Sequence record: DRR723986_7384
Reading direction: 5' to 3' (one strand)
DNA: 20,000 bases
This document shows, piece after piece, positions 81-8,301 of this stretch. The notes below the pieces were generated by a model. It did not search any database. It was not told where the DNA came from and saw nothing but the letters and a program-made list of their open reading frames with translations. The position numbers were made by a program, and so were the translations under genes. The stretch's first letter is position 1. The number at the start of each line of letters is the position of its first letter.

Positions 81-108
81 TTGACAGGCCACTAGTTGTT
101 TGTACTCT
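81..108 (+). promoter_or_regulatory. Putative sigma70-type promoter for the riboswitch-led operon
   Basis: Perfect TTGACA at 81-86, a 16-nt spacer, then TACTCT at 103-108. It sits immediately upstream of the riboswitch P1 5' strand (~112-128), where a transcription start is expected. Confidence 0.6.
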
Positions 109-111
109 AGT

Positions 112-367
112 GGGCAGATCGTGGTGGTGAGTGCCTGATGCTTCAGGGCTCACGAACAGGGAACTCCGGTGAAATTCCGGGACGGACCGGCCGCTGTGAT
201 TTGCCGCACGTTGCTCTTTGTTTAATTGAGCATCGTTGTTCACGCTCCTTCTGGATGAAGTGTCATTGCCCCAAACACTTGGGGTGAGAAGACGTCGAGT
301 GTGAATAGGCAAAGAGTCAGAAGACCTACCACGCGTTTAGAGCATCTGCCCTCCTGGATTTTGGGGC
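112..367 (+). ncRNA. Cobalamin (B12) riboswitch, long class I/AdoCbl-like architecture
   Basis: Hallmark motifs are in order: AACAGGGAACTCCGGTGAAATTCCGGGACGGACCGGCCGCTGTGA (155-199), GTCATTG-hairpin(GCCCCAA/TTGGGGT)-GAGAAGAC (262-293), and B12 box GAGTCAGAAGACCTACC (314-330). Visible pairings: CGTGGT(120-125)/ACCACG(328-333), GTGAG(127-131)/CTCAC(149-153), TTTGCC(200-205)/GGCAAA(308-313), TTCACGCTC(239-247)/GAGTGTGAA(297-305). A possible P13 hairpin GCCC/GGGC lies at 348-367. Confidence 0.93.
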
Positions 368-443
368 TTGCGCTTGAGGGGTAATTCAATGTCGAATTGC
401 CTTCACCTCTAAAGCACTTTGGCACATCCTGGAACACGGCGTC

Positions 444-1232
444 ATGCGCTCACGGTCCGCATTTACCCTTGTGGAATTGCTCGTTGTCATTGCGATCATT
501 GGCATTCTTGTCGGCTTGTTACTGCCAGCGGTGCAGGCGGCTCGAGAAGCTGCTCGCAAGGTATCTTGCAAAAACAATCTTCGGCAAATGGGAATCGCCC
601 TCCACAACTATGAATCTGCCCACCGTTGCATGCCGACGGGATGCATTCAGTGGCGGCCCTTTGGCGGAAGCCCTTCACGCAAGCAATTTGCGTGGTCAGC
701 CCTTATCCTGCCGTTTCTCGAGCAAGGAAACCTACACGCCCAAATTAATTTCGGCGTTCCCTTTGATGCACCGGAGAACGCTGAGTCCGCAGCAAGACGG
801 TTGCAAGTCTACGAATGCCCAACTGCCGAAGACCGCGAGATGATTCGTGGAAGAACCGATTATGGAGGGCTGTTCGGCGAACGGATGCAGGACAACAAGC
901 CCGACGACGGAACCTTCCTCTACGAGACCAAGATCGAGTTCCGTGACATTCGCGACGGCCTCTCTCAGACTGCGTGCATTTCCGAGGACGTCGGTGGACC
1001 GAGCAGTGAGTGGATTAACGGTGCCAACGTCTTCGTTCAATCTGGCTCAATCAACGATCCAAACGTTTGGATTGGCGACAACGAAATTCGCTCCAAACAC
1101 ACTGGAGGCGCGATGATTCTGTTCGCGGACAGCCACGTGCACTTCATCTCCCAACACGTTGATCAACAGGTCTTAGGGGCCATCATTACTCGCGCCAGCG
1201 GTGAAGTTGTTAATGAGTCCGACTACAGATAA
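444..1232 (+). CDS. DUF1559 family prepilin-type N-terminal cleavage/methylation domain protein (262 aa)
   Basis: N-terminus [51 protein letters not shown]; internal [15 protein letters not shown] and [10 protein letters not shown]-terminal [14 protein letters not shown], an H-X9-DG-type motif here reading DS. Confidence 0.95.
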
Positions 1233-1284
1233 CAAAACCCTACACGCGAACAACACAAGACATCACACCAAGAAGACTACCAAC

Positions 1285-2178
1285 ATGAGAACCTCAATGC
1301 CTCGAACCACCTTCAGTCAAAGCTTGTGCAGCGGTTTAAGAGCCTGTTGCGCGATCGTCTTTTCCGCGTACCTTCTACCAGTCTGCAGCCAGGCGGCGGT
1401 AATTGACTTCGAAGATCTCACGGTCTTCAGCGGCACCAGCGGAACAAGCGACAATCAACCTGGCGGACAGTTTTACAACGGGGACACCGGTGCAACGAAC
1501 ACCGATGGTTTCTCCAGCGGTGGGATGTTCTTCAGCAATTCGTTTACTCAAACTGATACGTTTTCGTTTTGGAGTGGTTTTGCTTACTCCAACGTCGTCA
1601 ACAGCGTGACCTCTGGCTTCGGAAATCAATACGCTTCCGTGGCTGGTGGAGGAGCTGACGGGTCTGGCGGTGCATCAGCGGGCACAAACTACGGCTTGCT
1701 TTTTGGCGGTGGATTCCTGAATGTGCCTGTAAACCAAGAGCTCGCGTCGATGGAGATCACAAACACCACCTATGCTCACAATTCAATGCGCGATGGCGAC
1801 GGATTCGCGAAGCAGTTTGGTGGTCCAACCGGCTCCGACCCAGACTTCTTCCGACTCAACATCGTTGGCTTCAACGCTGAAGCCGGCGGTGGCGACATGG
1901 TCGGAAGCCTGCAAGTCTCACTGGCGGATTACACCTTCACGGACGACTCTCAAGACTTCATTCTCGATTCATGGACGAACGTCGACCTAACCAGCCTTGC
2001 CGGCGCACGCAGCCTGACGTTCTCGTTTGAGTCGAGCGATGTTGGCAACTTTGGAATCAACACGCCAAGATACTTTGCCGTCGACAACATCGCATTGACG
2101 GCCGTGCCAGAGCCCACGTCAATCTTTATGTTGGCATTCGCGTGTGCGACAACAGCCACGCGGCGAAGGAAAAGCTAG
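1285..2178 (+). CDS. DUF4465 (BtuJ-like) domain protein with signal peptide and C-terminal PEP-CTERM sorting signal
   Basis: The likely start is ATG 1285 (or 1297), because the 1201 start overlaps the upstream gene. The signal peptide ends at ...VCSQA|AVIDFEDL. DUF4465-type motifs: WSGFAYSN, NQYAS, ITNTTYA..SM.DGD.FAK.FGG, LADY, W..VDL.SL, SSD.G.FG.NTP.YFA.DN. The tail is VPEPTSIFMLAFACATTATRRRKS. Confidence 0.88.
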   Translation: MRTSMPRTTFSQSLCSGLRACCAIVFSAYLLPVCSQAAVIDFEDLTVFSGTSGTSDNQPGGQFYNGDTGATNTDGFSSGGMFFSNSFTQTDTFSFWSGFAYSNVVNSVTSGFGNQYASVAGGGADGSGGASAGTNYGLLFGGGFLNVPVNQELASMEITNTTYAHNSMRDGDGFAKQFGGPTGSDPDFFRLNIVGFNAEAGGGDMVGSLQVSLADYTFTDDSQDFILDSWTNVDLTSLAGARSLTFSFESSDVGNFGINTPRYFAVDNIALTAVPEPTSIFMLAFACATTATRRRKS

Positions 2179-4985: not shown

Positions 4986-6278
4986 CTAGGCGAGAATTTC
5001 CTTGATGGGCGTACCATCGTTGCAAATCCGGAAAGGTCTGCCATTGGGCGCATAAAACTCTTCGTCGAGTGGAAGCCCCATTGCGGTCGCAATCGTCGCG
5101 TTTAGATCTTGCGGGTACACCGGATCGTCTTCTACACCATGCCCCTTGGCGTCACTGCTACCGTAGACGCTTCCGCCCTTGATGCCCGCGCCACACATCA
5201 TGGCAGAGAACACGCCTGGGTGATGGTCACGCCCCGCGTTTTCGTTGATCTTTGGGGTTCGTCCAAATTCAGTTGTCAGCACAACCAAGACCTCATCTAA
5301 CAATCCCTTGCTGTGCAGGTCTTTGATCAAAGCTCCAACGGCGTTGTCTACATTGGATACCATGCCCGGCAAGCGTCCGTAGAGATTGTCATGGTGATCC
5401 CACCCGCCATACTCAACCTCAACGAATCGCACACCCTTTTGCACCAAACGCCGCGCGAGCAGGCACCCCTGACCAATACGGTTCTCTCCGTAAAACTCTC
5501 TAACCGCGGGCTTTTCCTGCTTGATGTCAAACACTTTCAGCTCCGACGAACTCATCAGGCGGACAGCCTCCTTGTAGGTCTCGTCATACGCATCGATCAA
5601 ACTGGATTCGGTACTCGTTCGAAACTTTGCATCGAACTGCCGCGTGAGTGCCATTCGTTTGCGAAACTGATCTTCGGCAAGGTAGCTGGGGCCGGTTGTA
5701 TTCTGCAAACCGCTGGCAGGGTTGCTGACCGGTACGGGAGAAATCGATGCTGGCAGGAATCCCGCTCCAGGATGCTGTGCCCCACCTCCGACGGTAACGT
5801 TACCCGGCAAATTCCGATTGGCCTTGCCCAACACATGATTACTCCAAGCACCCATGCCGGGGTGGCGGATCGAGTTGAGCGGTTTATAACTCGTCCGCAT
5901 CATGTATTCACCTTGCTCATGCGCACCGGTCTCGGTGGTCATGGAGCGGATTAGAGCAAGGCCGTTCATCAAATAAGCCAGCTTGGGCATCTTGTCGTTG
6001 ATCGCTACGCCGGACAGACGAGTCTTGCCGGGCTGAGTTTCCCCCTGCGATTCGGTTCCCGGCTTGGGGTCGAAAGTGTCCAGGTGGCTCATCGCGCCAG
6101 TCATGTACAGGTAAATGACGCTCTTAGCTTTACCCGGTGAAACGCCGTTGGCCGCCATCGCAACGGGCTCGAGGGCGCGTCCTGTGAGTGTCCCCGCGCA
6201 TCCAACTCCGAGAAGAGTCTTGGCCGCATGCGCCATGAAGTTTCGGCGTGTCGGTTCTTGATGGTGCATCAGATGCAT
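4986..6278 (-). CDS. DUF1501 domain protein with twin-arginine (Tat) signal
   Basis: TRRNFM Tat motif, AKSVIYLYMTGAMSHLDTFDPKP, GQGCLLARRLVQKGVRFVEV, GGWDHH, TEFGRTPKIN, GRDHHP. The start could also be Met4 (6269). Confidence 0.93.
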   Translation of the reverse strand: MHLMHHQEPTRRNFMAHAAKTLLGVGCAGTLTGRALEPVAMAANGVSPGKAKSVIYLYMTGAMSHLDTFDPKPGTESQGETQPGKTRLSGVAINDKMPKLAYLMNGLALIRSMTTETGAHEQGEYMMRTSYKPLNSIRHPGMGAWSNHVLGKANRNLPGNVTVGGGAQHPGAGFLPASISPVPVSNPASGLQNTTGPSYLAEDQFRKRMALTRQFDAKFRTSTESSLIDAYDETYKEAVRLMSSSELKVFDIKQEKPAVREFYGENRIGQGCLLARRLVQKGVRFVEVEYGGWDHHDNLYGRLPGMVSNVDNAVGALIKDLHSKGLLDEVLVVLTTEFGRTPKINENAGRDHHPGVFSAMMCGAGIKGGSVYGSSDAKGHGVEDDPVYPQDLNATIATAMGLPLDEEFYAPNGRPFRICNDGTPIKEILA

Positions 6279-6336
6279 CCTCGTTGTTCTTGTTTAGCGG
6301 ACGGTCGTTTTCAAGCGGACAGAACGACGGTTTCAG

Positions 6337-8301
6337 TTACTGAATGAATAAGAATTCTCGGGTATTGATCAACGCCCAGACCACGTTGCCATAGCCCATT
6401 GCGGTGTCGCCACGCCCCAATTCCTTCAGCCCGATTTCACGATCACGATTCGTGGGCTGACGATTTAGAATGGACAAGAACATGACGTCCAGCGCGCCTC
6501 GTGACGTTCTGGCTCGCAGCAAGTTGTCGTAAATCACCGACCCCTTCTCGAGCATCATGTGTGTAAACGGCCCATTGAACATCGTCAAGATTTGTGGAAC
6601 CGTTGGGTCTGTGCTATCACCTTCGATCGTCTCGCGGTCGCCTTGTCCAAACTGGCGGAGAAAGTGATCGGGAGGAAGCGGCGACGGGAGCTCTGATGCA
6701 CGAATCAGTGCTTGGCGACGATACCCGACTGCTTTGTTCAGTAGTTTATTTCTAGCACCGGGGCTCACCTTTTCGTCAAACGTCTCCTTCTTCGCCTCAA
6801 GCTCGGAAGCAGAAACCTTGGCAAGATCAACATCGACGACTGAAGCCATCTCGTCGGTACTCGGCAACTCGGCTGCCATCGGGTTGTAGATCGCAATCGT
6901 CAGCACAGAATCCCAGACTTGTTCCGCAGTCATCCGGCGAAGCCGTGGGCCTGGGTAGTAATAAAACTCGGACTCAGATGGATCGAAATCACTCGACTTC
7001 CGATGATACGTTTTGGTGAAGTAAAGTGTCCTCAGGAATTCTCGCTGGTTGAACTTCAGCCGAATCATTTCCTTGGTCAGGAAGTCGAGAAGTTCGGGAT
7101 TCTGGCATGGGGAATCGTCCTTGATATCGTCAATTGGCTCAATCAGACCAACACCGAACACCTTCTTAAACAACCGATTGGCAATAGTCTTCGCGAACAA
7201 CGGATTGTTCGGAGCGGTCAGCCAGGCGGCATAGGCCTCGCGAGGCGATTTGTCTGCGGCTGCCTTAGGGATTTCACTCCACAGCACTTTAGCCTTCACT
7301 TTTTCGTTTGGCTTTCCATCACTGTACTGGTAATCATGCGGCAGCTTGAGAACACGCTTGGCATTGAACGAAACGTTATGCAAATTAGCTTGTGCAAGCA
7401 GATTCGCCGAACCGGGGAGCCGAGACTCGCCGGACATGTCCTTGAATTCCTTCTTAAGCCGTTCGATGGGGTTGCCGTCTTTAAAAGCCGGCGTTCCACC
7501 TCCGTCACGTGTTCGCGTTCCATGAGTGAATGCCGCCAACTGGTAGAACTCTTTCTGAGTCCACTTGTCAAAGGGATGATCGTGACACTGAGCACATCCA
7601 ATCTGGGTGCCTAGGAATACTCGCACGGTGTTATCGACGTGCACTAGAGGCATTCCATTGTCACGCATCGTGTAGCCAACCGCGGGCGACTCCCAGACTT
7701 TCCCTTCCGCGGTAAGCATCTCGTAAACCCATTTATCGTAGGGCCGATTCACGCGGATCTGATCCTTGACCCAATCCTTATACGGATAGGCAAGAATGTT
7801 GTTGGACGGACGATCCTTGATGCGAAGAATCGACGCCCAGTAGTTGTACATATGGCTAACGTGACCATAGCTACTAAGAAGAGTGTCGATCAGCCGCTCG
7901 CGTTTGTCGGACGCTTTGTCGGCTTTGAAAGCAAGCGTTTGCTGGAGCGTCGGAATGGTTCCTGCGATATCCAGGTAAGCTCGACGCACAAAAGTAAAGT
8001 CGTCGGCCATCGCGTTCGGCGCACCGCCTTGCTCGGAGAGCTTTGCTTCGATCAGAGCATCGATACGCTGCGCGGCCGATTTGCGATCAGCCGTACTACC
8101 AGACTCAACAGGAGTCACACGCGGCTTCCCTTGCGGAGCCGTCTTTACAGCTTCAGGCAAACCGTAGCCCTTGAACTTCTGACTTGGCAGCTTCTTTTTC
8201 TTCCCTTTCTGAGCCAATACGGGAGCCGCGGGAACAGCAAATAGAGCGATCAAGATGATTCGCAGGATCCTGGAGCCTTGTAAAATCTCAAGGAAGTTCA
8301 T
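6337..8301 (-). CDS. DUF1549/DUF1553 (PSCyt2/PSD1) Planctomycete-type protein with a CxxCH motif
   Basis: Signal peptide, FVRRAYLDIAGTIPT, NRPYDKWV, VFLGTQIGCAQCHDHPFDKWTQKEFYQLAAF, FAKTIANR..K.VFGVGLIEPIDD, RRMTAEQVWDS, WALINTREFLF. It lies in its usual position upstream of a DUF1501 gene. Confidence 0.93.
   Translation of the reverse strand: MNFLEILQGSRILRIILIALFAVPAAPVLAQKGKKKKLPSQKFKGYGLPEAVKTAPQGKPRVTPVESGSTADRKSAAQRIDALIEAKLSEQGGAPNAMADDFTFVRRAYLDIAGTIPTLQQTLAFKADKASDKRERLIDTLLSSYGHVSHMYNYWASILRIKDRPSNNILAYPYKDWVKDQIRVNRPYDKWVYEMLTAEGKVWESPAVGYTMRDNGMPLVHVDNTVRVFLGTQIGCAQCHDHPFDKWTQKEFYQLAAFTHGTRTRDGGGTPAFKDGNPIERLKKEFKDMSGESRLPGSANLLAQANLHNVSFNAKRVLKLPHDYQYSDGKPNEKVKAKVLWSEIPKAAADKSPREAYAAWLTAPNNPLFAKTIANRLFKKVFGVGLIEPIDDIKDDSPCQNPELLDFLTKEMIRLKFNQREFLRTLYFTKTYHRKSSDFDPSESEFYYYPGPRLRRMTAEQVWDSVLTIAIYNPMAAELPSTDEMASVVDVDLAKVSASELEAKKETFDEKVSPGARNKLLNKAVGYRRQALIRASELPSPLPPDHFLRQFGQGDRETIEGDSTDPTVPQILTMFNGPFTHMMLEKGSVIYDNLLRARTSRGALDVMFLSILNRQPTNRDREIGLKELGRGDTAMGYGNVVWALINTREFLFIQ

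What the first reader, a model, noticed from the sequence alone, without database searches (positions are those of the whole stretch)
81..2178. Candidate Planctomycete cobamide-capture module: B12 riboswitch, DUF1559 pilin-like protein, and DUF4465 (BtuJ-like) PEP-CTERM surface protein
Seen in sequence: a promoter, a complete cobalamin riboswitch and exactly two co-oriented genes, closed by a convergent gene. There is no btuB, btuFCD, ECF or cob/cbi gene in the unit. Established: cobalamin riboswitches mostly repress B12 uptake/synthesis genes or B12-independent isozymes; DUF4465 proteins of Bacteroides (BtuJ) have been reported as surface B12-binding proteins; PEP-CTERM is an exosortase-dependent surface sorting signal; DUF1559 proteins carry a type IV prepilin cleavage/methylation motif, are hugely expanded in Planctomycetes and have no assigned function. 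Inference: the two proteins form a B12-repressed scavenging system. An exosortase-anchored B12 binder would capture cobamide, and a pilin/pseudopilin-like subunit would take part in binding or import in place of, or alongside, a TonB receptor. This would give a ligand-level function to a DUF1559 paralogue.
Basis: partly seen in the sequence, partly recalled or inferred. Interest (0 to 1): 0.85.

Follow-up and report, generated by a model that had tools for sequence, protein, structure and literature searches.

The report
B12-controlled pilin-like cobamide capture operon
A vitamin-B12-sensing RNA switch controls two genes, a pilin-like protein of a huge family of unknown function and a surface-anchored B12-binding protein, and this pairing recurs so often in Pirellulales planctomycetes that the pilin-like family gets its first link to a ligand.

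Summary
A full-length Cobalamin riboswitch (105-347, 62.4 bits) precedes two co-oriented genes: a 262-aa prepilin-type DUF1559 protein and a 297-aa DUF4465 (BtuJ-like) protein with signal peptide and PEP-CTERM tail. A convergent glycosyltransferase closes the unit.

The DUF4465 half is a new member of a known kind. It matches solved B12-bound DUF4465 structures in sequence and predicted fold and keeps the B12-contacting tyrosines.

The DUF1559 half is new. In 100 sampled Pirellulales B12-riboswitch regions, one DUF1559 clade is the first gene in 47, followed directly by DUF4465 in 23. On a tree, 53 of 58 riboswitch-linked DUF1559 proteins form one clade (support 99) that excludes all 29 paralogues of the nearest genome. 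Conversely, 26 of the 29 best clade hits in 401 genomes have the riboswitch upstream.

The clade was found in 97 of 151 order genomes and is less often accompanied by any TonB-dependent receptor (odds ratio 0.27, uncorrected). Proxy genomes show no CbiC or MetE but hold MetH-sized B12-binding frames.

Best reading: a B12-repressed cobamide-acquisition module. Whether the pilin-like protein relays B12 inward or exports its partner is unresolved. I found no publication linking DUF1559 to B12.

The parts
81..108 (+). Promoter-like element: TTGACA (81-86), 16-nt spacer, weak -10 TACTCT (103-108)
   Evidence: Read. The -35 hexamer is invariant in window, L001 and the diverged L153. The consensus scan did not report it, so it is only suggestive.
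105..347 (+). Cobalamin riboswitch aptamer (RF00174), full length, with a long insertion in the peripheral P6 region
   Evidence: 62.4 bits, E 1.5e-13, model 1-189 of 189.
348..443 (+). Leader between aptamer and start codon (expression platform, not resolved)
   Evidence: No terminator-like site here. The fold of 318-470 is no more stable than shuffles, z 0.60. Control at translation initiation or through Rho is inferred, not shown.
444..1232 (+). DUF1559 prepilin-type (pseudopilin-like) protein, 262 aa, member of the B12-riboswitch-linked clade
   Evidence: PF07963, PF07596, TIGR04294. (clade, support 99). (AF2 pLDDT 95.3). (best structural matches are type IV pilins and pseudopilins, Z 5.3 or lower).
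1285..2178 (+). DUF4465 (BtuJ-like) cobamide-binding protein precursor, 297 aa: signal peptide (about residues 1-37), DUF4465 domain, PEP-CTERM tail
   Evidence: (9hmu_A E 1.1e-18, 9i2l_B E 6.2e-9). (model pLDDT 87.5; 9hmu_A E 2.8e-17, TM by target 0.76; BtuJ1 9fct/9qpm TM 0.74-0.76).
1558..2091 (+). DUF4465 domain (residues 92-269), including the conserved NTxYA helix motif (N160, Y163) and the NTPxY loop (N259, T260, P261, Y263)
   Evidence: domain limits. (invariant or near-invariant columns in 45 sequences). (alignment to B12-bound 9HMU and BtuJ2). PMC13398666 names these two tyrosines as B12 contacts.
2104..2175 (+). PEP-CTERM sorting signal (residues 274-297: VPEP, hydrophobic stretch, basic tail)
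   Evidence: TIGR02595, 24.8 bits, cut-off 16. The same tail is present in most relatives.

Best explanation
This is a B12-repressed, two-gene cobamide-acquisition operon of a Pirellulaceae bacterium.

Shown: a complete Cobalamin riboswitch sits directly before a DUF1559 gene and a DUF4465 gene. This trio is a conserved unit in Pirellulales. The DUF1559 gene belongs to one dedicated clade that is almost always riboswitch-linked.

Inferred:
1. When cobamide is scarce the riboswitch lets both genes be expressed.
2. The DUF4465 protein is exported by its signal peptide, fixed at the cell surface through its PEP-CTERM tail by an exosortase, and captures cobamide in its loop pocket as BtuJ1, BtuJ2 and D5EK51 do.
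3. The DUF1559 protein is cut by a prepilin peptidase. It stays with its N-terminal helix in the inner membrane, or is built into a short pseudopilus under a secretin.
4. In that position it acts as the B12-specific inward relay: it takes cobamide, or the loaded binder, across the outer membrane and periplasm towards a BtuF-type ABC importer. This is the job that BtuB and TonB do elsewhere.

Steps 1 and 2 are likely. Steps 3 and 4 are the weakest.
For: Anatomy:
- The riboswitch, both genes and their domains are confirmed.

DUF4465 is a B12 binder by homology:
- Sequence matches to B12-bound 9HMU and to BtuJ2.
- The predicted fold matches all solved DUF4465 structures.
- The two B12-contacting tyrosine motifs are conserved (PMC13398666 Results).
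- That paper reports B12 binding for six further DUF4465 proteins, including one from the planctomycete Mucisphaera calidilacus.

Synteny:
- 15 of 17 planctomycete loci found with the DUF4465 protein show riboswitch, then DUF1559, then DUF4465. One more is cut at the contig end. One has the riboswitch directly before DUF4465.
- Of 100 sampled riboswitch regions from a 151-genome Pirellulales sample, the clade DUF1559 is the first gene in 47 and is directly followed by DUF4465 in 23. Of 28 DUF4465 genes seen there, 24 share the unit with the clade DUF1559: these 23 plus L073, where the order is reversed.

Dedicated clade:
- 53 of 58 riboswitch-linked DUF1559 proteins form one clade (SH-aLRT 99) without any of 29 paralogues of genome G001.
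- 26 of the 29 best hits in 401 genomes have the riboswitch within 1.5 kb upstream, and 22 of 29 have DUF4465 in the locus.
- 96 of 97 clade-positive genomes have a riboswitch hit.

Ligand rather than partner:
- The same clade also precedes other, unrelated PEP-CTERM proteins.
- Clade-specific residues (D139, G141, G142, N192, N195, F197) are kept in 87-96% of the 53 members, whatever the partner.

Need for uptake:
- In G001 (90% and 74% identical proteins) this is the only Cobalamin riboswitch found.
- In five genomes carrying the trio, CbiC was found in 0 of 5 and MetE in 0 of 5. B12-binding domains in frames of 1176-1264 aa were found in 4 of 5, and BtuF-type binding proteins in 3 of 5.

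In place of TonB:
- A TonB-dependent receptor was found in 1 of those 5 genomes.
- Across 151 genomes, 47 of 97 clade-positive and 42 of 54 clade-negative genomes have a receptor (odds ratio 0.27, Fisher p 5e-4).
- Of 6 genomes with a riboswitch-linked receptor among the sampled regions, 5 lack the clade, and the sixth copy holds an in-frame TAG.

Machinery:
- Exosortase, prepilin peptidase and secretin were each found in 5 of 5 trio genomes.
Against: - No expression or binding data exist for this locus. No RNA run holds it.
- The expression platform is not resolved: no terminator, and no fold beyond chance.
- Nothing shows that DUF1559 touches B12 or the DUF4465 protein.
- The DUF1559 model gives only weak pilin-like matches (Z 5.3 or lower) and no recognisable ligand-binding fold.
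- Half of the clade-positive genomes (47 of 97) still have TonB-dependent receptors, G001 included.
- The receptor test used any PF00593 hit rather than BtuB. It was not corrected for relatedness and rests on draft genomes.
- Paralogue controls for the tree come from one genome plus two neighbours.
- Four riboswitch-linked DUF4465 genes in the sample, and the Phycisphaeraceae locus L003, lack a DUF1559 neighbour, so the binder can work without it.
- DUF1559 paralogues in G001 are often followed by small lipoproteins. This fits a general 'pilin-like protein plus secreted partner' design whose job could be export.
- No whole genome is held for the window, so genome-level statements rest on G001 and other relatives.
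Confidence: 0.45

Rival explanations
1. Export or display helper. The unit is still a B12-repressed scavenging operon, but the DUF1559 protein handles no B12. It is a cargo-specific pseudopilin of a type II secretion-like machine that pushes the neighbouring PEP-CTERM protein through a secretin to the surface. Each DUF1559 paralogue would serve its own neighbouring secreted protein.
For: - The best structural matches are pilins and the T2SS pseudopilins EpsG and PulG, and NCBIfam gives a weak GspG match.
- The partner downstream is always a secreted protein with signal peptide and PEP-CTERM or dockerin-like tail.
- About 10 of 29 other DUF1559 paralogues in G001 are followed by a small lipoprotein gene.
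- PMC8567305 (passage read) notes that such genes are often flanked by genes with signal peptides.
- DUF1559 subclades track the partner type on the tree.
- Secretins were found in 5 of 5 trio genomes.
Against: - One clade serves several unrelated partner families yet keeps its clade-specific residues. That is easier to explain by a shared ligand than by shared cargo.
- PEP-CTERM proteins are thought to be handled by exosortase, with no known need for a pseudopilin (recalled).
- Four DUF4465 genes in the sample and L003 lack the DUF1559 neighbour.
- The negative association with TonB-dependent receptors is not predicted by a pure export role.
Confidence: 0.3
2. Membrane-tethered periplasmic B12 chaperone. 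The DUF1559 protein is not assembled into any fibre. It stays anchored in the inner membrane by its N-terminal helix and itself binds cobamide in the enlarged planctomycete periplasm, handing it to BtuF and the ABC importer, as tethered solute-binding proteins do.
For: - Pfam calls the family SBP_bac_10, and NCBI/UniRef use the generic name 'PulG-like putative transporter'. These are names only.
- Proteins with N_methyl plus SBP_bac_10 fractionate with membranes in Tuwongella (PMC8567305, passage).
- One sampled locus has riboswitch, a DUF1559 of another type, DUF7676, BtuF and FecCD in a row (L030).
- Clade-specific residues are conserved regardless of partner.
Against: - No solute-binding fold appears among the best structural matches (weak evidence).
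- No pocket analysis was possible.
- It does not explain how cobamide crosses the outer membrane in genomes where no TonB-dependent receptor was found.
Confidence: 0.15
3. Not an uptake system. The pair forms a B12-regulated surface structure for another purpose: an extracellular cobamide reservoir or competitive sequestration, or adhesion to B12-producing partners such as algae-associated bacteria. It would not feed import directly.
For: - BtuJ1 is proposed as an extracellular reservoir (bioRxiv 10.1101/2025.07.01.662609, abstract and passages).
- Pilin-like proteins and PEP-CTERM proteins are typical of adhesion and matrix (recalled).
- No transporter gene lies in the unit.
Against: - Proxy genomes look B12-dependent, with no synthesis marker and no MetE found, and in G001 this is the only riboswitch-controlled unit found.
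- The negative association with TonB-dependent receptors points to a transport role.
Confidence: 0.08
4. Chance neighbourhood. DUF1559 genes are so numerous (about 38 in G001) that one simply happens to lie between the riboswitch and the DUF4465 gene.
For: The family is large: 43 Pfam matches in G001.
Against: - The clade is the first gene in 47 of 100 sampled riboswitch regions.
- It is a single dedicated clade.
- 26 of the 29 best clade members have the riboswitch upstream.
Confidence: 0.02

Closest known systems
BtuJ1 / BtuJ2 of Bacteroides thetaiotaomicron (DUF4465 surface B12 binders in riboswitch-controlled btu loci; PDB 9FCT, 9QPM, 9I2L)
   Same: Same Pfam domain and predicted augmented beta-jellyroll fold. 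Conserved B12-contacting tyrosines. Also placed behind a Cobalamin riboswitch, and also extracytoplasmic.
   Different: - About 20% identity.
- Anchored by PEP-CTERM (exosortase) or, in relatives, dockerin-like tails instead of a lipid anchor.
- No BtuB, BtuG, BtuH or BtuFCD in the unit.
- The partner is a prepilin-type DUF1559 protein, which the text of the DUF4465 papers I searched does not mention.
D5EK51 of Coraliomargarita akajimensis (PDB 9HMU) and 'Pan' of Mucisphaera calidilacus, DUF4465 proteins shown to bind B12 (PMC13398666)
   Same: 9HMU is the closest solved relative (30% identity, E 1.1e-18 by sequence, 2.8e-17 by fold). Both come from the PVC group, and 'Pan' shows that a planctomycete DUF4465 binds B12.
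   Different: That paper reports gene neighbours as ABC transporters, TonB-dependent barrels and plugs, and beta-propellers. It names no pilin-like neighbour and no PEP-CTERM. Its supplements could not be seen.
Type II secretion pseudopilins (GspG/PulG/EpsG) and type IV pilins, including DNA-uptake pilins such as ComP
   Same: Prepilin leader with Glu at +5, a long N-terminal helix and a small sheet. All of the 22 best structural matches are pilins or pseudopilins. A retracting pilus bringing DNA in through a secretin is the nearest working analogy for pilin-assisted import (recalled knowledge).
   Different: - Twice the size of GspG, with only weak structural scores (Z 5.3 or lower).
- Carries the planctomycete-type DUF1559 body and H-X9-DG motif.
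- Not encoded in a pilus or secretion gene cluster in the window.
- No known pilin is under a vitamin riboswitch, as far as my searches show.
BtuB-TonB with BtuFCD (classical B12 uptake of Gram-negative bacteria)
   Same: Same regulatory logic (Cobalamin riboswitch before an uptake component) and the same presumed purpose. In the same order, 6 of 100 sampled riboswitch regions do precede a TonB-dependent receptor.
   Different: No receptor, TonB, BtuF or ABC gene lies in this unit. The clade tends to occur where no receptor was found.
PEP-CTERM / exosortase protein sorting
   Same: C-terminal VPEP motif, hydrophobic helix and basic tail above the TIGR02595 cut-off. Exosortase homologues were found in 5 of 5 genomes with the trio.
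   Different: PEP-CTERM proteins are usually linked to exopolysaccharide loci (PMC12530212, passage citing Haft 2006). Here the cargo is a vitamin binder under a riboswitch.

Membership tests
Cobalamin riboswitch (Rfam RF00174) | Covariance-model score above the curated gathering score over the whole model | tested here: met
   62.4 bits against 31.5, model 1-189 of 189, E 1.5e-13.
Cobalamin riboswitch (Rfam RF00174) | Ligand-dependent control of the downstream genes | not testable with these tools
   No terminator or clear sequestering helix was found. No RNA run is listed.
DUF4465 / BtuJ-like B12-binding proteins | PF14717 domain above cut-off | tested here: met
   155.6 bits against 25, E 2.2e-45.
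DUF4465 / BtuJ-like B12-binding proteins | Conserved B12-contacting tyrosines (HI-loop NTPxY; helix of the DE loop) | tested here: met
   N259, T260, P261, Y263 and N160, Y163 are invariant or at least 90% conserved in 45 sequences. They align to the same motifs of 9HMU and BtuJ2. The motifs are as described in PMC13398666 Results.
DUF4465 / BtuJ-like B12-binding proteins | Augmented beta-jellyroll fold | tested here: met
   AF2 model pLDDT 87.5. Foldseek ranks 1-9 are all DUF4465 structures, TM by target 0.53-0.81.
DUF4465 / BtuJ-like B12-binding proteins | Binds cobalamin | not testable with these tools
   Needs purified protein.
DUF4465 / BtuJ-like B12-binding proteins | Typical (not universal) lipoprotein anchor and co-location with BtuB/BtuG/ABC genes | tested here: not met
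   There is no canonical lipobox, and the cysteine before the cleavage site is not conserved in relatives. The tail is PEP-CTERM instead. No transporter gene is in the window. PMC13398666 states that over 70% are lipoproteins, so this feature is not defining.
DUF1559 prepilin-type proteins (PF07596 with PF07963) | N-terminal cleavage/methylation motif with Glu at +5, DUF1559 body, H-X9-DG motif | tested here: met
   PF07963 E 3.7e-7, PF07596 E 1.8e-51, TIGR04294 30.8 bits against 19. E11, H219 and D229 are conserved.
Type IV pilin / pseudopilin fold | Long N-terminal helix packed on an antiparallel sheet | tested here: inconclusive
   Confident model (pLDDT 95.3). The 22 best VIA rows are all pilins or pseudopilins, but Z is only 5.3-2.5. 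Foldseek matches only the helix.
Type IV pilin / pseudopilin fold | Processed by a prepilin peptidase and assembled by a T2SS/T4P machine | not testable with these tools
   Peptidase A24 and secretin were found in 5 of 5 related genomes, but not in the window's own genome, which is not held.
Periplasmic solute-binding proteins (implied by the Pfam name SBP_bac_10) | Two-lobed periplasmic binding-protein fold | tested here: inconclusive
   No such protein is among the 50 rows listed or the rows. By the tool's own caveat, a family that is not listed is not excluded.
PEP-CTERM / exosortase cargo | C-terminal PEP-CTERM domain above cut-off, and an exosortase in the genome | tested here: met
   TIGR02595 24.8 bits against 16. 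PF09721 was found in 5 of 5 related genomes carrying the trio. The window's own genome is not available.
BtuB/TonB-dependent B12 uptake locus | TonB-dependent receptor gene behind the riboswitch | tested here: not met
   None in the unit or the window.

The most novel reading that the evidence does not exclude
Pirellulales import cobamides by a pilin-based route instead of a TonB-dependent gate. A dedicated DUF1559 pseudopilin, made only when B12 is scarce, takes the vitamin from exosortase-anchored surface binders and carries it through a secretin-type pore into the large periplasm. By extension, the dozens of DUF1559 paralogues per planctomycete genome, each with its own secreted partner, would be ligand-specific heads of one general pilus-driven uptake machine.
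Probability: 0.25. Interest if true: 0.92.

Novelty: new variant of a known kind. Interest (0 to 1): 0.78.

Why it matters
DUF1559 is one of the largest protein families of unknown function in Planctomycetes: 43 Pfam matches in the nearest genome, and 91 proteins with both domains in Tuwongella according to PMC8567305. I found no assigned ligand or phenotype for it. A clade that is tied to the Cobalamin riboswitch, and to proven B12-binding partners, gives the family a concrete and testable ligand.

It also raises the question of how bacteria with few or no TonB-dependent receptors take up a 1.3-kDa vitamin they cannot make. That matters for B12 exchange in algal, sediment and wastewater communities where Pirellulales are common.

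The DUF4465 half extends the BtuJ family to a new anchoring mode, PEP-CTERM or dockerin-like tails.

Tried and rejected
- Complex prediction of the DUF4465 domain (38-273) with the DUF1559 soluble part (31-262) returned 'no answer', score 0.00, and my alignments were not used. It carries no weight either way.
- No RNA holder is listed for window 81-2178.
- The search of the window's own genome was impossible because none is held. G001, which holds L001, was used as proxy.
- A single-protein search over the phylum sample scored only 17 candidates per genome and was too lossy for this family. I replaced it with profile A1.
- My first tally by greedy longest-ORF calling gave DUF1559 first in 39 of 100 regions. 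That was an undercount, because upstream-extended ORFs masked their neighbours. The profile-based tally replaces it.
- Single-linkage clustering wrongly labelled the second genes of L059, L065, L074, L102 and L116 as DUF4465. The A2 profile does not match them.
- The sigma-70 scan found no promoter, and the only terminator-like site (inside gene 2) is below the number expected by chance.
- The leader fold is not better than shuffles. I saw a 6-nt complement between the L5 region and codons 4-5 of gene 1 by eye and did not pursue it.
- Foldseek found no solved structure for the DUF1559 globular part. The PDB profile search matched only the pilin helix.
- Literature searches found nothing linking DUF1559 or pilins to B12: 'DUF1559' gave 4 papers, Planctomycetes + cobalamin riboswitch + pilin gave 0, PulG-like/HX9DG/SBP_bac_10/PF07596 gave 8, planctomycet + riboswitch + cobalamin + BtuB gave 3, and PEP-CTERM + cobalamin riboswitch gave 2, unrelated.
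- Supplements of PMC13398666 (its genome-neighbourhood tables) could not be read and might list PF07596 as a neighbour.


Full report
**1. What is in the window**

Rfam finds one family in the 20 kb: a full-length Cobalamin riboswitch at 105-347 on the + strand (62.4 bits, gathering score 31.5, E 1.5e-13). It scores modestly because of a long insertion in a peripheral helix.

Ninety-six bases later, at 444-1232, starts a 262-aa ORF. It carries a prepilin cleavage/methylation motif (PF07963), the DUF1559 body (PF07596, E 1.8e-51) and the H-X9-DG motif (TIGR04294).

After a 52-nt gap comes a 297-aa ORF at 1285-2178. It has an N-terminal signal peptide, a DUF4465 domain (PF14717, E 2.2e-45) and a PEP-CTERM tail (TIGR02595, above cut-off).

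A convergent GT4 glycosyltransferase ends 14 nt downstream. The rest of the window holds a heptosyltransferase, the planctomycete DUF1501 and PSCyt2/PSD1 pair, PyrF, an ABC transporter, PurF, ProB, a sulfatase, PanC and others. None of the ORFs scanned is a B12 gene.

The consensus scan reports no promoter. Even so, a perfect TTGACA at 81-86 with a weak -10 is conserved in the two relatives I aligned, one of which has diverged flanks.

**2. The DUF4465 half is a recognisable B12 binder**

- By sequence the protein matches the B12-bound DUF4465 structure 9HMU (E 1.1e-18), 4JQR, BtuJ2 (9I2L) and 4E9K.
- An AlphaFold model built on 45 relatives (pLDDT 87.5) has all solved DUF4465 structures as its nine best Foldseek matches, with TM-scores by target of 0.53-0.81.
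- The NTPxY loop and the tyrosine-bearing helix are invariant or nearly so in my alignment. PMC13398666 (Results and Discussion read) describes both as the conserved B12 contacts.
- That paper shows B12 binding for six further DUF4465 proteins beyond BtuJ1 and BtuJ2, one of them from the planctomycete Mucisphaera calidilacus.
- The BtuJ1 preprint (10.1101/2025.07.01.662609, passages read) notes the family in Planctomycetota.

What differs here is the anchor. There is no lipobox. Instead there is a PEP-CTERM tail, and in relatives either that or a dockerin-like repeat.

**3. The trio recurs**

A scan of one genome per species with the DUF4465 protein gave 20 loci.
- Of the 17 from planctomycete-labelled records, 15 show riboswitch, DUF1559, DUF4465 in that order.
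- One more (L013) is cut at the contig end just inside the DUF1559 gene.
- One (L003, Phycisphaeraceae) has the riboswitch directly before DUF4465.
- The three gammaproteobacterial loci have neither riboswitch nor DUF1559.

The nearest locus, L001, comes from an uncultured Pirellulaceae genome (G001). Its proteins are 90% and 74% identical to the window's, so the window comes from a Pirellulaceae (order Pirellulales).

**4. Survey starting from riboswitches**

In a 151-genome sample of G001's order, 137 genomes have a Cobalamin riboswitch hit. From the 150 listed hits I took 100 by a fixed rule (skipping every third). For each I fetched the riboswitch plus 3.3 kb downstream. I then searched all six frames with profiles built from my alignments A1 (DUF1559 clade) and A2 (DUF4465).

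- A full-length clade DUF1559 is the first gene in 47 of 100 regions.
- In 23 of these it is directly followed by DUF4465.
- DUF4465 occurs in 28 regions. In 24 of them it shares the unit with the clade DUF1559: these 23 plus L073, where the order is reversed.
- The other four (L056, L060, L072 and the first unit of L078) have DUF4465 without it.
- Nine further regions carry a different kind of DUF1559.
- The remaining riboswitches precede ordinary targets: class Ia ribonucleotide reductase (10), MetE (4), TonB-dependent receptors (6), cob genes, BtuF and TonB-like proteins.
- Five regions were cut short by contig ends.

An earlier ORF-based tally (39 of 100) was an undercount and is superseded.

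Where DUF4465 is absent, the gene after DUF1559 is another secreted protein with a PEP-CTERM tail. Several such families have no Pfam match.

**5. A dedicated clade**

On a maximum-likelihood tree of 89 DUF1559 proteins, 53 of 58 riboswitch-linked ones form one clade (SH-aLRT 99). It excludes all 29 paralogues taken from G001 and two non-riboswitch neighbours. The five exceptions fall in two other places. The paralogue controls come essentially from one genome, which is a limit.

The converse test starts from sequence alone. Of the 29 best hits to the window's protein in 401 genomes of the order (G001 itself set aside):
- 26 have a Cobalamin riboswitch within 1.5 kb upstream on the same strand;
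- 22 have DUF4465 in the locus.

Members of the clade are shorter than the paralogues (median 266 against 339 aa). They share residues that the paralogues lack: D139, G141, G142, N192, N195 and F197.

With profile A1 the clade, taken as a best hit of at least 280 bits across a clear gap in the scores, was found in 97 of 151 genomes of the order. In a phylum-wide sample of 151 genomes it was found in G001 and, more weakly, in one other (G071, 259 bits). There it again lies 157 nt downstream of a riboswitch. DUF4465 was found in 2 of those 151. The module is therefore mainly a Pirellulales feature.

**6. Physiological setting, from relatives only**

In G001 this is the only Cobalamin riboswitch found. 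Across five genomes that carry the trio:

| Marker | Genomes with a hit |
|---|---|
| CbiC (corrin synthesis marker) | 0 of 5 |
| MetE | 0 of 5 |
| B12-binding domain in a MetH-sized frame (1176-1264 aa) | 4 of 5 |
| BtuF-type binding protein | 3 of 5 |
| TonB-dependent receptor | 1 of 5 |
| Exosortase | 5 of 5 |
| Prepilin peptidase | 5 of 5 |
| Secretin | 5 of 5 |

The frames with B12-binding domains were not otherwise checked as MetH. These are draft genomes, so the misses are 'not found', not 'absent'.

Across the 151-genome sample, a TonB-dependent receptor was found in 47 of 97 clade-positive and 42 of 54 clade-negative genomes (odds ratio 0.27, Fisher p 5e-4). Six genomes have a riboswitch-linked receptor among the sampled regions. 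Five of them lack the clade, and the sixth copy has an in-frame stop. This test uses any receptor, not BtuB, and is not corrected for shared ancestry.

**7. What the DUF1559 protein looks like**

The AlphaFold model is confident (pLDDT 95.3, pTM 0.88): a 52-residue N-terminal helix followed by a mixed alpha/beta body. Foldseek matches only the helix. An all-against-representatives structural search puts 22 pilins and pseudopilins on top (PilA4 Z 5.3, EpsG 4.9, ComP 4.6, PulG 3.5). The scores are weak, and no solute-binding fold appears among the listed rows. A PDB profile search likewise matches only pilin N-termini. It is best described as an enlarged pilin-like protein with no solved relative for its body.

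**8. How it most likely works**

The riboswitch logic and the B12-binding role of DUF4465 follow from well-studied families, so I hold them likely. The role of DUF1559 is inference.

Three facts argue that it is tied to the ligand and not merely to a neighbour:
- one clade serves several unrelated PEP-CTERM partners;
- its clade-specific residues persist across them;
- it tends to occur where TonB-dependent receptors were not found.

My best reading (0.45) is an inward relay. Surface binders catch cobamide, and the pilin-like protein passes it across the outer membrane and periplasm to an ABC importer. It would do this either membrane-anchored or assembled as a short pseudopilus under a secretin. 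Pilus-assisted DNA uptake is the nearest working analogy (recalled).

The main rival (0.30) is that DUF1559 proteins are cargo-specific export helpers. This fits the general pattern of DUF1559 genes followed by genes for secreted proteins (PMC8567305, passage read). A tethered periplasmic chaperone (0.15) and a non-uptake surface function (0.08) remain possible. Chance adjacency is excluded by the counts above.

**9. Novelty**

My searches of the held library found no paper connecting DUF1559, SBP_bac_10 or pilins with B12 or its riboswitch. NCBI and UniRef give some members the generic name 'DUF1559 family PulG-like putative transporter', a name without stated evidence.

I rate the whole as a new variant of a known kind, a riboswitch-controlled cobamide-scavenging locus. 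It has one ordinary part (DUF4465) and one new part (a dedicated pilin-like clade). It gives a large family of unknown function a directly testable ligand.

Noticed in passing
L002:1487-2452; L155:1498-2508 (-); proteins P0035 (Rosistilla oblonga), P0096 (Pirellula sp. SH-Sr6A): In some of the closest relatives, the B12-clade DUF1559 carries a cysteine-rich DUF1289 domain (PF06945, E about 1e-14) fused in front of the prepilin leader. That amounts to an unusually long, folded leader that the prepilin peptidase would cut off on the cytoplasmic side. The window's gene lacks it.
   Followed up: partly
L182 (G001:C51:28100-42210), upstream of the operon in the nearest genome; beyond the window's 5' end: A divergent zinc alcohol dehydrogenase lies upstream. 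Then, 1.9-7 kb upstream on the operon's strand, comes a Tad-like pilus set: TadZ/CpaE-like ATPase, secretin, RcpC/CpaB and an A24 prepilin peptidase. I did not check whether this neighbourhood is conserved.
   Followed up: partly
L040, L041, L063, L068, L076, L091 (family c6); L084, L085 (c19 then c10); L095, L108 (c10); 16 members of family c2, e.g. L048:2431-3258: Several families of secreted PEP-CTERM proteins with no Pfam match follow the riboswitch-linked DUF1559, or follow DUF4465. They are candidates for further cobamide binders of unknown fold.
   Followed up: partly
e.g. L048:1263-2378, L035, L056, L112, L103: Many Pirellulales DUF4465 proteins end in a dockerin-like calcium-binding repeat (PF00404, E 6.4e-6 in L048) instead of PEP-CTERM. 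This is a second way of fixing the binder.
   Followed up: no
L040, L062, L090, L098, L103, L112, L120 and others: A class I SAM methyltransferase (Methyltransf_11, about 280 aa) often follows the module, sometimes followed by shikimate dehydrogenase. It is unclear whether it belongs to the riboswitch unit.
   Followed up: no
L030 (G237:C46): This locus has riboswitch, a DUF1559 of a different type, DUF7676, BtuF-like binding protein and FecCD permease in one direction. It links a pilin-like gene directly with an ABC B12 importer.
   Followed up: no
L122, L126, L128, L133, L135, L136, L137, L143 (G001 paralogue loci): About 10 of 29 other DUF1559 paralogues in G001 are followed by a small lipoprotein gene (150-230 aa). 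Its Pfam matches to CarboxypepD_reg, DUF4198 or DUF6795 are all below the curated cut-offs. This hints at a general 'DUF1559 plus small secreted partner' design.
   Followed up: partly
G263:C233, G162:C1, G301:C24, G208:C1, G225:C1, G266:C1, G174:C223, G215:C156 (rows): Eight clade DUF1559 hits next to riboswitch positions hold one in-frame TGA or TAG. They could be pseudogenes, sequencing errors or read-through. I did not examine them.
   Followed up: no
G233:C8 (L078 and L050); L173; L175: Two Cobalamin riboswitches lie 1.6-2.3 kb apart on one strand, each before its own DUF4465 or DUF1559 unit. These are tandem B12-controlled capture units.
   Followed up: no
window 4986-8301 (-): A DUF1501 gene lies next to a PSCyt2/PSD1 (DUF1549/DUF1553) gene. 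This is a common planctomycete pair of unknown function and is unrelated to the finding.
   Followed up: no
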